Assembly (NCBI GenBank): GCA_963715985.1
Contig: CAVQSP010000008.1
Span: 64,001 to 128,000, forward strand
DNA: 64,000 nt
Reading direction: 5' to 3'
Source: an uncultured Thermoleophilia bacterium
Lineage (GTDB): Bacteria; Actinomycetota; Thermoleophilia; UBA2241
Both the position numbers and the translations under genes were made by a program. Below the pieces are notes generated by a model. The model made no database searches and was not told the DNA's origin. It was given only the letters and a program-made list of their open reading frames with translations. Positions 46,544 through 48,394 of this stretch are shown here, piece by piece. The first letter of the stretch is position 1, and every line of letters begins with the position of its first letter.

Positions 46544-48394
46544 CTACTGGACAAGCACGGCGTCGCGCTTGCAGACGTCCCTGCAGATCCCGCACTTGAT
46601 GCACAGCTCCTGGGCGATCGTGTGCGGCTGCTTCTTCTCTCCGGCGATCGCGTCCTGAGGGCAGCGAACGGCGCAAAGCGTGCAGCCGTTGCAGCGCTCC
46701 ACGTCGATGCTGAAGCTGATGAGCGCCTTGCACACCGCGGCCGGACAGCGCTTGTCGTCGACGTGCGCGAGGTACTCCTCGCGGAAGTAGCGCAGCGTGG
46801 ACAGCACCGGGTTGACGGCGCTCGTGCCGAGGGCGCAGAGGGAGGTGGCCTCCACGGTGTCGGCGAGCTCCTCGACGAGGGCGATGGTGTCCCGCGTGCC
46901 GCGGCCCTCGGTGATGTCGCCGAGCAGATCGTGCAGCATGGCGAGCCCGTCGCGGCACGAGGTGCAGTTGCCACACGACTCGGAGGCCAGGAAGCGCAGG
47001 AAGTACTTGGCGACGTCCACCATGCAGGTGTCCTCGTCCATCACGATCATGCCGCCGGAGCCCATCATGGAGCCCTCGGCCACGAGCGTGTCGAAGTCCA
47101 CCGGCAGGTCGAGCTTGCCGGCCGGAAGGCAGCCCCCGGAAGGACCGCCGGTCTGGACGGCCTTGAACGCCTTGCCCTCCGGGATGCCCTCGCCCACGTC
47201 GAAGATGATCCGGCGCAAGGTCATGCCCATCGGCACCTCGACGAGCCCGGTGTTGTTCACCTTGCCGACGAGGGAGAAGATCTTGGTGCCGGTTGAGCCC
47301 TCCGTGCCGATCGAACGGAACCAGTCGGCCCCGTTGAGCACGATGTGCGGGACGTTCGCCCAGGACTCCACGTTGTTCACATTGGTGGGCCGGCCCCACA
47401 GGCCTTCTTCAGACAGGTGGATGAGCCGCCGGTGCGGCACCCCGCGACGCCCCTCCAGCGACGCCATCATGGCGCTCGCCTCACCGCAGACGAACGCGCC
47501 ACCGCCTCTGCTCACGCGGACGTCGAACGACAGGTCGCTGTCGAGGATGTGGTCACCGAGCAGGCCGAGTTCGCGCGACTGCTCGATCGCCAGGCCGAGG
47601 TGCTCCACCGCCAGCGGGTACTCTTGGCGGACGTATACGTAGCCTTCGGGCGCCCCCATGGCAAGGGCGCCGATGGTCATCCCCTCGAGCACACTGTGGG
47701 GATTCCCTTCGAGGATCGAGCGGTCCATGAAGGCGCCCGGGTCGCCCTCGTCCGCGTTGCACACCACGTACTTCAGGTCGCCCGTTGCGTTGCGGCACGC
47801 CTCCCACTTGCGGCCGGTCGGGAAGCCGGCGCCGCCACGACCGCGCAGGCCTGACCGCTTGACCTCTTCCAGTACCGCCGCCGGGCCCATCTCAAGGGCT
47901 CGCAGAAGCGCTGCGTAGCCGCCGGCGGCGATGTAGTCGTCGATGGACGTGGGGTCGAGCTGCCCGGTGTCTCGCAGTACGATGCGCTGCTGGTGCCGGT
48001 AGAACGCGATGTCTTCCTCGGTGCGATAGCGCTCGCCTGTCACCGGGTCCTGGTACAGCAGGCGCTCGACCACCTCGCCGCCGAGCAGGGTCTTCTCGAC
48101 GATCTCGGCGACGTCCTTGACCTGTACGTGCTGGTACAGGGTGCCGTCGGGAAGCAGCTTGACCAGCGGCCCGCGCTCACAGAACCCGTGGCAGCCGGTG
48201 GCCCGCATCCCGATCGCGTGGCCGGCCCCCTGGGCGGCGACCTCGGCACGCAGCGCCTCGAACACCCTCATCGCGCCCTGCGCGCGGCAGCCGGTACCTC
48301 CGCACACGGCGACGACTTTCTGACTCGTGTCCCTGGTCGCGAGCAGGACTCTCGCGATGTCGCGACAACTGGGCTGGATCGGAGAGACGCCCAC
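46544..48394 (-). CDS. NuoF/HydB-like FMN and Fe-S pyridine-nucleotide-binding subunit (WorB/BfuB-like)
   Basis: N-terminal CGGTGC...CHGFC, [37 protein letters not shown]...C, C-terminal 2x[4Fe-4S]. Confidence 0.92.
   Translation of the reverse strand: [616 protein letters not shown]

What the first reader, a model, noticed from the sequence alone, without database searches (positions are those of the whole stretch)
47400..47510. Flavoprotein subunit has CGEAS instead of CGEET, predicting an NADP(H)-linked bifurcating aldehyde oxidoreductase
Seen: the motif reads [12 protein letters not shown] (GCG codon at 47477-47479), and the usual PR.KPPFP segment is replaced by the basic PHRRLIHL. Known: the second Glu of CGEE binds the NADH adenosine ribose in NuoF/Nqo1, and the E183A change in E. 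coli NuoF permits NADPH oxidation. Inference: this complex would couple aldehyde oxidation to NADP+ plus ferredoxin, unlike the NAD-linked characterised WorABCSL. That would be a variant I do not know to have been described.
Basis: partly seen in the sequence, partly recalled or inferred. Interest (0 to 1): 0.8.

Follow-up and report, generated by a model that had tools for sequence, protein, structure and literature searches.

The report
Bifurcating tungsten aldehyde oxidoreductase operon
This is an operon for a tungsten enzyme that oxidises aldehydes and splits the electrons between ferredoxin and NAD(P); its nucleotide pocket lacks the usual acidic residue, but so does the known NAD-using enzyme, so NADP use is plausible and not shown.

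Summary
The minus-strand ORF 46544-48394 encodes a NuoF/BfuB flavoprotein reading CGEAS...PHRRLIHL. Ala306 (GCG, 47477-47479) aligns without gaps to E. coli NuoF Glu183, and His326 to Phe203.

The gene lies in a WorS-L-X-C-B-A operon. Four of the five Wor subunits hit the solved A. mobile WorABCSL (PDB 9MQX) best or virtually tied for best; WorC hits it fourth.

The claimed contrast with WorABCSL fails. A. mobile WorB, solved with NADH bound, reads CGESS...PRVKYIH, the same kind of pocket.

The pocket is a coupled two-state character. Among 278 unique BfuB cores, 113 have Glu plus Phe/Tyr, 163 have Ala/Ser/Thr plus His/Arg, and 2 are mixed. At least 8 switches fall on the same tree branch.

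The NADP-specific T. kivui HydB is Ser/Arg, while 8 other Thermoanaerobacter genomes are Glu plus Phe/Tyr. Engineered changes at these two positions give NADP+ activity in R. capsulatus FDH (PMC10671435).

My reading: an ordinary member of the bifurcating WOR class whose pocket probably admits NADP(H). Strict NADP specificity is unproven.

Side find: this lineage's complex I NuoF has the same Ala/His pocket.

The parts
51062..51544 (-). WorS, polyferredoxin small subunit (about 160 aa). The real start is probably Met200 of the longer ORF 51062-52141.
   Evidence: Best PDB hit is 9mqx_E (3.6e-44), aligned from query residue 200 to chain residue 1. Pfam finds 4Fe-4S families.
49255..51060 (-). 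WorL, tungstopterin aldehyde:ferredoxin oxidoreductase large subunit (601 aa)
   Evidence: Pfam AFOR_N 9.5e-81 and AFOR_C 2.3e-149. Best PDB hit is 9mqx_D (1.8e-227), then P. furiosus AOR 1aor_A. Thr243, Glu313, Tyr427 and His448 (PfAOR numbering) are all conserved in the alignment.
48903..49175 (-). WorX, a ThiS-like small protein (90 aa) between WorL and WorC
   Evidence: Pfam ThiS 7.7e-14. PMC13328260 describes a ThiS-like WorX that in some operons separates SL from ABC (passages).
48395..48886 (-). WorC/BfuC, NuoE-like [2Fe-2S] subunit (163 aa)
   Evidence: Pfam 2Fe-2S_thioredx 1.2e-46. PDB hits: 8a6t_C 6.9e-40, 7p5h_C, 7t2r_C, then 9mqx_C 1.9e-33 in fourth place.
46544..48394 (-). WorB/BfuB, NuoF-like FMN and NAD(P)-binding flavoprotein (616 aa, P0001)
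   Evidence: Pfam domains. PDB hits: 7t2r_B 3.8e-237, 9mqx_B 1.4e-236, 8a6t_B 2.5e-217.
47477..47479 (-). Pocket site 1: Ala306 (GCG), at the position of E. coli NuoF Glu183, R. capsulatus FdsB Glu259, C. saccharolyticus NfnB Glu274 and T. kivui HydB Ser320
   Evidence: Residue roles come from PMC10671435 and PMC11829005.
47417..47419 (-). Pocket site 2: His326 (CAC), 20 residues after site 1, at the position of E. coli Phe203, FdsB Leu279, NfnB Phe294 and T. kivui Arg340
   Evidence: Arg340 is named as an NADP+ contact in PMC10021017 (Fig. 4 legend). Phe294 stacks on the adenine in PMC11829005.
47804..47851 (-). Glycine-rich loop 1, [16 protein letters not shown] (residues 182-197), canonical and intact
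   Evidence: Position. It matches the [11 protein letters not shown] loop with the stacking Phe and ribose-binding Lys described for NfnB (PMC11829005).
47735..47761 (-). Rossmann loop CNADEGDPG (residues 212-220), the 'A-D-E-G-D-P-G' form
   Evidence: PMC9431212 proposes ADEGDPG for NAD-using and GDEGDPG for NADP-using enzymes (passages).
45770..46534 (-). WorA/BfuA, short NuoG-N-terminal-like subunit (254 aa) without a catalytic C-terminal domain
   Evidence: Pfam Fer2_4 and 4Fe-4S families. Best PDB hit is 9mqx_A (2e-49) over residues 3-244. The two Cys pairs of the A. mobile zinc finger (C-x2-C ... C-x2-C) are aligned.

Best explanation
Shown: window 45770-51544 (minus strand) encodes a class IV, Bfu-type tungsten aldehyde oxidoreductase in the order WorS-WorL-WorX-WorC-WorB-WorA.

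By homology, aldehydes are oxidised at the tungstopterin of WorL. Electrons pass through the WorS and WorA iron-sulfur clusters to the FMN of WorB, where they are bifurcated to ferredoxin and a nicotinamide nucleotide.

Shown: the two WorB residues that hold the adenosine of NADH in canonical enzymes are replaced as a pair. These are a Glu on the ribose 2'-OH and an aromatic residue 20 positions later on the adenine. Here they are Ala306 and His326. This is one of two alternative, co-evolving pocket states of the family, and the characterised A. mobile WorB (Ser/His) shares it.

Inferred: without the carboxylate that repels a 2'-phosphate, and with an imidazole beside it, the pocket admits NADP(H). 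The enzyme most likely has relaxed (NAD and NADP) or NADP-leaning specificity. It is therefore not a special variant of WorABCSL but a typical member of its pocket class.
For: Anatomy:
- Pfam domains of all subunits.
- Best or virtually tied-best PDB hits to 9MQX chains D, E, A and B; chain C is fourth.
- The four catalytic WorL residues are conserved.
- The gene order equals the 'type 1 SLCBA with WorX' operon of PMC13328260.

Residue equivalence: gapless alignments to E. coli NuoF and to A. mobile WorB, T. kivui HydB, A. woodii HydB and T. sibiricus NfnB.

Role of the two positions:
- FdsB Glu259 H-bonds the ribose 2'-OH. E259G/H/Q/R and L279R gain NADP+ activity (PMC10671435).
- NfnB Glu274 binds the adenine ribose and Phe294 stacks on the adenine (PMC11829005).
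- T. kivui HydB uses NADP+, with Arg340 named as a contact (PMC10021017).

Natural switch: of 9 Thermoanaerobacter genomes with a hit (10 searched), 8 are Glu plus Phe/Tyr. The one identical over 630 of 630 residues to T. kivui HydB is Ser/Arg.

Coupling: 276 of 278 unique cores are in one of the two states. Parsimony gives 11 changes at site 1 and 10 at site 2, with 8 on the same branch out of 554 branches. All 22 loci the pattern missed obey the same rule.

Conservation: 20 of 20 orthologue loci examined are Ala/His.

Within-genome discrimination: of 8 NuoF-family paralogues, 5 keep Glu/Phe and 3 do not. The three are Wor-Bfu (Ala/His), Por-linked (Ser/Arg) and complex I (Ala/His).

Phylogenetic company: Schut 2022 places the Wor-type BfuB in clade 45 together with the C. 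autoethanogenum Hyt enzyme, which reduces NADP+ (PMC5861303).
Against: - A. mobile WorB has the same pocket class, yet its structure holds NAD(H) and the papers describe NAD reduction.
- Position +20 is His, not the Arg of T. kivui.
- The Rossmann loop is ADEGDPG, the form PMC9431212 associates with NAD users. T. kivui HydB and A. mobile WorB have GDEGDPG.
- In R. capsulatus FDH the single changes gave only additional NADP+ activity, combining them was not additive, and the authors conclude that further residues matter.
- The same Ala/His pocket in this lineage's complex I NuoF can also be read as showing that the pocket handles NADH well.
Confidence: 0.55

Rival explanations
1. NAD(H)-only enzyme, like the published description of A. 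mobile WorABCSL. In this view Ala/His (or Ser/His) is just this clade's way of holding the NAD adenosine, with His stacking in place of Phe, and it carries no NADP function.
For: 9MQX has NAD(H) bound to a Ser/His WorB, and NAD reduction is reported. The loop is ADEGDPG, the 'NAD form' of PMC9431212. Loop 1 with the stacking Phe and ribose Lys is canonical. The complex I NuoF of the same lineage has the same pocket, and complex I normally oxidises NADH.
Against: This does not explain why the two positions flip together at least 8 times. It does not explain why one genome keeps 5 Glu/Phe and 3 non-acidic paralogues. It does not explain why the only naturally NADP-specific enzyme I could align has the non-acidic state while its 8 congeners do not. 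I found no statement that NADP+ was tested and failed with A. mobile WorABCSL; the primary paper is not held.
Confidence: 0.33
2. One reading: a strictly NADP(H)-specific bifurcating aldehyde oxidoreductase that differs in this respect from the NAD-linked WorABCSL. This is a narrower case nested within my best explanation.
For: Ala sits at the Glu183 position. NADP+ activity is gained by the equivalent changes in FdsB. T. kivui HydB provides a natural precedent.
Against: A. mobile WorB shares the pocket class, so no difference from WorABCSL can be inferred from this motif. Position +20 is His, not Arg. The loop is ADEGDPG. Engineered single changes relaxed rather than reversed specificity.
Confidence: 0.12
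3. A degenerate nucleotide site: WorB no longer binds any nicotinamide nucleotide, and the complex only passes electrons to ferredoxin.
For: Both adenosine-contacting residues are replaced.
Against: Loop 1, the ADEGDPG loop and the FMN/4Fe-4S domains are intact. The pocket is strictly conserved in 20 of 20 orthologue loci. The A. mobile enzyme with the same pocket class binds NAD(H).
Confidence: 0.03

Closest known systems
Acetomicrobium mobile WorABCSL (PDB 9MQX; Feng et al. 2025, PMC12318220)
   Same: All five subunit types are present. WorL, WorS and WorA hit its chains best and WorB virtually ties for best; WorC hits it fourth. WorA is short, with the zinc-finger Cys pairs. WorB lacks the second Glu of CGEE and has His in place of the PPFP Phe.
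   Different: Gene order is SL-X-CBA here (type 1), against CBASL (type 2) in A. mobile. Site 1 is Ala rather than Ser. Loop 1 and the Rossmann loop are canonical here ([21 protein letters not shown]), whereas A. mobile reads YLRGRGGGGFRTG and NGDEGDPG. The host is probably a Thermoleophilia MAG (record titles), whereas the BF-type WORs were reported from Synergistetes and Firmicutes. The 1:3 ABC:SL stoichiometry cannot be tested here.
Thermoanaerobacter kivui HydB (PDB 8A6T), subunit of an NADP-dependent bifurcating [FeFe]-hydrogenase
   Same: Same BfuB architecture, 53% identity over 601 residues. Non-acidic residue at site 1 and a basic/imidazole residue at +20.
   Different: Ser/Arg rather than Ala/His. 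GDEGDPG rather than ADEGDPG. It partners with an [FeFe]-hydrogenase, not a tungsten oxidoreductase.
Engineered NADP-accepting NuoF-type flavoproteins: R. capsulatus FdsB E259X, K276A and L279R (PMC10671435), and the E. coli complex I Glu variants cited there (Morina 2011)
   Same: The same two positions are changed: Glu259 corresponds to Ala306 and Leu279 to His326, both 20 residues apart.
   Different: Those are laboratory variants of non-bifurcating enzymes and gained only partial NADP+ activity.
Eubacterium limosum WOR1 (type 1 WorSLCBA operon)
   Same: Same operon type, according to PMC13328260.
   Different: Its WorB pocket could not be examined here; no E. limosum sequence was reachable. 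A Tuco riboswitch precedes the E. limosum operon, whereas Rfam gave no hit anywhere in this window.

Membership tests
Class IV (bifurcating, Bfu-type) tungsten oxidoreductase, WorABCSL | WorL with AFOR N- and C-terminal domains and the aldehyde-oxidising residues Thr243, Glu313, Tyr427 and His448 (PfAOR numbering) | tested here: met
   Pfam result. All four residues align identically to 1aor_A. The residue list comes from PMC13328260.
Class IV (bifurcating, Bfu-type) tungsten oxidoreductase, WorABCSL | WorS polyferredoxin next to WorL | tested here: met
   9mqx_E at 3.6e-44 across the whole chain. I did not count the clusters one by one.
Class IV (bifurcating, Bfu-type) tungsten oxidoreductase, WorABCSL | Short BfuA (type 2) with a zinc finger and no catalytic C-terminal domain | tested here: met
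   254 aa; 9mqx_A at 2e-49 over residues 3-244; both C-x2-C pairs aligned.
Class IV (bifurcating, Bfu-type) tungsten oxidoreductase, WorABCSL | BfuB with an N-terminal [2Fe-2S] domain, an FMN/NAD(P) module, the B1 4Fe-4S region and a C-terminal 2x[4Fe-4S] domain, plus a NuoE-like BfuC | tested here: met
Class IV (bifurcating, Bfu-type) tungsten oxidoreductase, WorABCSL | One contiguous operon, SLCBA or CBASL, with optional WorX | tested here: met
   S-L-X-C-B-A on the minus strand, with the largest gap 79 bases (WorL to WorX) and the rest 16 bases or fewer. The same order occurs in relatives L128-L130.
Class IV (bifurcating, Bfu-type) tungsten oxidoreductase, WorABCSL | Aldehyde oxidation obligately coupled to reduction of both ferredoxin and NAD(P)+ | not testable with these tools
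   Needs enzyme assays.
NADP(H)-specific NuoF-type flavoprotein (T. kivui HydB type) | No carboxylate at the E. coli Glu183 position | tested here: met
   Ala306.
NADP(H)-specific NuoF-type flavoprotein (T. kivui HydB type) | Arg at +20 contacting the nucleotide (Arg340) | tested here: inconclusive
   His326 rather than Arg.
NADP(H)-specific NuoF-type flavoprotein (T. kivui HydB type) | G-D-E-G-D-P-G Rossmann loop (a proposal of PMC9431212) | tested here: not met
   P0001 has ADEGDPG. On my tree this loop does not co-vary with the pocket: 10 changes, none on a branch where site 1 changes.
NADP(H)-specific NuoF-type flavoprotein (T. kivui HydB type) | Measured preference for NADP(H) | not testable with these tools
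   Needs assays.
Canonical NAD(H) pocket of NuoF/HydB (CGEE[ST] ... PP[FY]P) | Glu on the adenosine ribose and an aromatic residue at +20 | tested here: not met
   Ala306 and His326.

The most novel reading that the evidence does not exclude
The Ala/Ser/Thr plus His/Arg state is nature's NAD-to-NADP switch in NuoF-type flavoproteins. If so, this Wor-Bfu, the Por-linked Bfu in the same genome, and much of 'clade 45' (Wor, Por, Bam-like and others) feed or draw on the NADP pool. A. mobile WorABCSL would then also accept NADP+. The E. coli-type complex I of this Thermoleophilia lineage (CGEAS/CGEGS plus PPH in 22 of 30 loci) would be a natural NADPH-oxidising complex I.
Probability: 0.3. Interest if true: 0.75.

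Novelty: new member of a known kind. Interest (0 to 1): 0.45.

Why it matters
Which nicotinamide pool a bifurcating enzyme uses decides how it fits into an anaerobe's energy and biosynthetic budget. Bfu enzymes are generally treated as NAD-linked, as Schut 2022 hypothesises for the whole family.

A two-residue, co-evolving pocket state has three properties here. It matches the positions used to engineer NADP+ use. It matches the one natural NADP-specific enzyme I could align. It is discriminated among paralogues within single genomes. Together these give a cheap, testable sequence rule for re-annotating thousands of Bfu and NuoF-type proteins.

For this locus the practical message is more modest. 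It is a regular bifurcating tungsten aldehyde oxidoreductase from a probable Thermoleophilia MAG, a group outside the Synergistetes and Firmicutes named for Wor-Bfu in the passages I read. Its motif does not set it apart from the characterised enzyme.

Tried and rejected
1. Whether NADP+ was assayed with A. mobile WorABCSL. Schut 2021 PNAS, Morina 2011 JBC and Wang 2013 J Bacteriol are not held. The SI of PMC12318220 was not consulted. The passages I read from PMC12318220, PMC9304861, PMC13328260 and PMC12096430 speak of NAD or generic NAD(P) only. PMC13390469 does not mention NADP at all (0 occurrences), and PMC11725836 mentions it once, in a reference title.

2. C. autoethanogenum HytB and E. 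limosum WorB pockets. No sequence was reachable. The 'Eubacterium sp.' MAG behind L026 has no WorL. PMC9431212 gives only the loop motif.

3. Gene context of the Glu/Tyr proteins nested inside the Ala/His clade (P0049, P0076, P0078). It was not found in a 401-genome phylum sample; the only other hit was G462 at 66% identity. The metagenome scan returned no close relative of P0078 with Glu/Tyr. G462's locus is C-B-A-S-like with no recognisable WorL before the contig end.

4. The [A/G]DEGDPG loop as a specificity marker. It does not co-vary with the pocket and occurs with both states.

5. Moco/Tuco riboswitch: no Rfam hit at gathering threshold in the whole window.

6. Sigma-70 promoter and intrinsic terminator scans of 45300-52400 found 0 and 0. 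This is uninformative in DNA of about 70% GC.

7. TGA=Sec ORF listing to fill gene-call gaps in paralogue loci was useless at this GC content. I used a codon-position GC plot instead.

9. PMC10482914 (Stn) and the 2026 Hox preprint held nothing on specificity determinants.

10. Literature searches for a described NADP-linked bifurcating aldehyde oxidoreductase, and for natural Glu183 variants, listed none by title or abstract. These searches are not exhaustive.
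Full report
**1. The observation**

The window has about 70% GC, and the gene lies on the minus strand. ORF 46544-48394 (616 aa, P0001) reads ...[50 protein letters not shown]... Ala306 is the GCG codon at 47477-47479 and His326 is CAC at 47417-47419. Pfam finds Complex1_51K, NADH_4Fe-4S, an N-terminal thioredoxin-like [2Fe-2S] domain and a C-terminal two-cluster ferredoxin domain.

I fetched E. coli K-12 nuoF. BLASTP has no gap in this stretch, giving Ala306 = Glu183, Arg323 = Lys200 and His326 = Phe203.

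**2. What the locus is**

Six co-directional genes sit almost end to end:
- WorS: 51062-51544 (its true start is Met200 of a longer ORF)
- WorL: 49255-51060
- WorX, a ThiS-like protein: 48903-49175
- WorC: 48395-48886
- WorB: 46544-48394
- WorA: 45770-46534

Comparison with PDB 9MQX, the A. mobile WorABCSL structure (identified in PMC12318220, data-availability passage):
- WorL, WorS and WorA have their best PDB hits in chains D (1.8e-227), E (3.6e-44) and A (2e-49).
- WorB hits chain B at 1.4e-236, virtually tied with the A. mobile NiFe-HydB 7t2r_B at 3.8e-237.
- WorC hits HydC-type chains first and 9mqx_C fourth.

The four residues listed for aldehyde-oxidising WORs (Thr243, Glu313, Tyr427, His448) are conserved. 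WorA keeps the two Cys pairs of the A. mobile zinc finger.

The order S-L-X-C-B-A is the 'type 1' operon of PMC13328260, with WorX between SL and ABC (passages). The nearest named genome loci are Thermoleophilia MAGs, with 90% and 73% identity in the best segment.

**3. The decisive comparison**

In the same HMMER output, the PDB chains read as follows:

| Chain | Enzyme | Motif |
|---|---|---|
| 9mqx_B | A. mobile WorB | [35 protein letters not shown] |
| 8a6t_B | T. kivui HydB | CGEST...PRVRPPRT |
| 7t2r_B | A. mobile NiFe-HydB | CGEET...PRPRPPFP |
| 7q4v_B | A. woodii HydB | CGEET...PRPRPPFP |
| 9n5u_B | T. sibiricus NfnB | CGEET...PRPRPPYP |

A. mobile WorB thus lacks the second Glu and has His where the others have the PP[F/Y]P aromatic residue. 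PMC12318220 (sections 5 and 7) says NAD(H) is well resolved next to FMN in WorB and that the enzyme reduces NAD and ferredoxin.

The proposed contrast collapses.

**4. What the two positions do**

All of this comes from passages I read:
- In R. capsulatus FdsB, Glu259 H-bonds the 2'-OH of the NADH ribose. E259G/H/Q/R, K276A and L279R gain NADP+ activity. The combinations were not additive, and the authors conclude that other residues also matter. They cite Morina 2011 for the same effect in E. coli complex I (PMC10671435).
- In C. saccharolyticus NfnB, the adenine is sandwiched between Phe159 and Phe294, and the adenine ribose binds Lys164 and Glu274 (PMC11829005).
- T. kivui HydABC works with NADP+. 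Its Fig. 4 legend names Phe205 and Arg340 as nucleotide contacts (PMC10021017).

In every case the second position is 20 residues after the first: 259/279, 274/294, 320/340 and 306/326. P0001 keeps the loop-1 Phe and Lys ([16 protein letters not shown]).

**5. A coupled two-state pocket**

P0001 and its 120 best relatives: of 120 typed, 83 are Ala/His, 25 Glu/Tyr, 11 Ser/His and 1 Glu/His.

I added 80 genome loci, 80 metagenome loci, class relatives, paralogues and Thermoanaerobacter loci. I then built a FastTree of 278 unique BfuB cores:
- 113 tips have Glu plus Phe/Tyr, 163 have a non-acidic residue plus His/Arg, and 2 are mixed.
- Fitch parsimony on the midpoint-rooted tree gives 11 changes at site 1 and 10 at site 2.
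- 8 of these fall on the same branch, out of 554 branches.
- All 22 loci my pattern missed obey the same rule: 11 are Glu plus PP[F/Y]P and 11 are Ser plus xI[H/R]. Twenty of them were missed because they read SGE instead of CGE.

Caveats: the sample was drawn by similarity to P0001 and P0078 and is rich in Ala/His sequences. Relatives are not independent. The root is arbitrary.

Orthologues of this WorB: all 20 loci examined, of 22 places in 20 other genomes among the 401 searched, are Ala/His. One same-genus genome has a second Wor-Bfu with a mixed Glu/His pocket and a different WorL at 47% identity.

**6. A natural NAD/NADP pair**

In the genus of L019 (Thermoanaerobacter), 9 of 10 genomes gave a hit. 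Seven are Glu/Phe, one is Glu/Tyr and one is Ser/Arg. The Ser/Arg protein is identical over 630 of 630 residues to 8a6t_B, T. kivui HydB. This enzyme is reported to depend on NADP and not NAD (PMC9431212; PMC10021017).

**7. Modules**

Of 138 pattern-typed loci, out of 160 examined:
- [FeFe]-hydrogenase-adjacent BfuBs: 37 of 37 canonical.
- WorL-adjacent: 5 of 5 non-canonical.
- POR-adjacent: 4 of 4 non-canonical.
- With none of these three modules: 46 canonical, 45 non-canonical, 1 mixed.

One POR-adjacent locus missed by the pattern (L066) is canonical, so the association is not absolute. T. kivui is a hydrogenase exception.

Schut 2022 places Wor, Por, Bam, Mbh, F420 and the C. autoethanogenum Hyt/Fdh enzyme in one BfuB clade, clade 45. 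The Hyt enzyme reduces NADP+ (PMC5861303).

**8. The organism's own paralogues**

The 4.35-Mb assembly has 8 PF01512 matches.
- Five keep CGEET plus PPFP. These are three [FeFe]-hydrogenase-linked copies, a Nuo-like cluster with a GltD-fused BfuA, and one beside Wood-Ljungdahl genes.
- Three do not: this WorB (Ala/His), a POR-linked BfuB (CGEST...GKHIRT, Ser/Arg like T. kivui) and the E. coli-type complex I NuoF (CGEAS...PRARPPHMT).

A cell that maintains both states in parallel suggests that they are not equivalent.

**9. Reading**

Shown:
- The operon, the residue equivalence, the conservation and the coupling.
- That A. mobile WorB shares the pocket class.

Inferred: the pocket admits NADP(H).

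Against a strict NADP reading:
- The A. mobile data.
- His rather than Arg at +20.
- The ADEGDPG loop, which PMC9431212 links to NAD users. That loop shows no co-variation with the pocket in my tree.
- The partial effects of the engineered changes.

My probabilities: 0.55 that the enzyme accepts NADP(H), either dually or with a preference. Within that, about 0.12 that it is strictly NADP-specific and different from WorABCSL. I give 0.33 to NAD-only.

**10. Novelty**

This is a new member of a known kind. It is a class IV bifurcating WOR in a probable Thermoleophilia MAG, a group outside the Synergistetes and Firmicutes that Schut 2022 names for Wor-Bfu in the passages I read.

The broader pattern is the part worth a specialist's attention, and it is directly testable. 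It has three elements: the two-state pocket, its match to the engineered and natural NADP switches, and its presence in a complex I.

My searches listed no paper describing an NADP-linked bifurcating aldehyde oxidoreductase or natural Glu183-position variants. The primary A. mobile paper and its supplements, which I could not see, may bear on this.

Noticed in passing
Own genome outside the window: G000:C13:203460-204959 (L015:7458-8960:-): The E. coli-type complex I NuoF of this organism is 47% identical to E. coli NuoF and is followed by nuoG-H-I-J-K. It reads CGEAS...PRARPPHMT, which is Ala at the Glu183 position and His at the Phe203 position.

In a 201-genome class sample, 31 genomes had a match. 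Of 30 loci, 22 read CGE[A/G]S plus PPH (families f1 and f4) and 8 read CGEET plus PP[F/Y]P (family f6).

This looks like a natural counterpart of the engineered NADPH-oxidising complex I variants. nuoG appears frameshifted in this MAG, and no nuoE was found beside nuoF using a partial E. coli NuoE query.
   Followed up: partly
Own genome: G000:C11:252844-254694 (L010:7824-9737:+) and its neighbours: A Por-linked Bfu cluster. It has a POR alpha-like gene, then a BfuB with CGEST...GKHIRT (Ser/Arg, the T. kivui state). Next comes a 1057-aa fusion of a BfuA N-terminus, a GltD-like FAD/NAD(P) domain, ferredoxin domains and a TPP-binding domain. Five class relatives share the Ser/Arg pocket (L121-L125).
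   Followed up: partly
Own genome, 8 loci (L002-L009; L010-L015): There are eight NuoF-family paralogues in a 4.35-Mb MAG (88.8% complete, 7.3% contamination). Three are [FeFe]-hydrogenase-linked, including a 1022-aa NuoF-GltD fusion next to sensory hydrogenase, kinase and response-regulator genes. One is a Nuo-like cluster with a GltD-fused BfuA. One lies beside formate-THF ligase and FolD genes. This suggests an anaerobic, bifurcation-rich and possibly acetogenic actinobacterium.
   Followed up: partly
G335:C5:632933-634702 (L209), same genus: A second Wor-Bfu operon with a mixed pocket (CGEET plus LVHPS, Glu/His), a WorL only 47% identical to the window's, and two further AOR-family genes upstream. 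It is a possible evolutionary intermediate between the two pocket states.
   Followed up: partly
P0049, P0076, P0078 (database proteins, 75-80% identical to P0001): These are Glu/Tyr (CGEES...PPYP) proteins nested inside the Ala/His clade on the tree. They look like recent reversions. Their gene context could not be retrieved.
   Followed up: partly
window 57974-59779 (+) and 60103-61329 (-): A 601-aa aldehyde dehydrogenase family protein (Aldedh 3.6e-153, with an N-terminal extension of about 140 aa) and a PLP-dependent decarboxylase lie 6-9 kb from the Wor operon. They are a possible aldehyde source and sink nearby.
   Followed up: no
window 30968-33819 (-): An EtfA-like gene (ETF plus ETF_alpha) is followed by a long acyl-CoA dehydrogenase (591 aa with AcylCoA_dehyd_C). 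This may be another flavin-based electron-transfer pair.
   Followed up: no
window 40117-44061 (-): A GT87 glycosyltransferase, a PAP2-HAD fusion and a HAD hydrolase lie downstream of the operon. A cation-efflux (CDF) transporter gene at 44437-45351 (+) faces WorA.
   Followed up: no
21 of 160 related loci (e.g. L040, L083, L150): A subgroup of BfuB homologues reads SGE instead of CGE in the motif, so the conserved Cys is replaced by Ser. These homologues occur with both pocket states.
   Followed up: no
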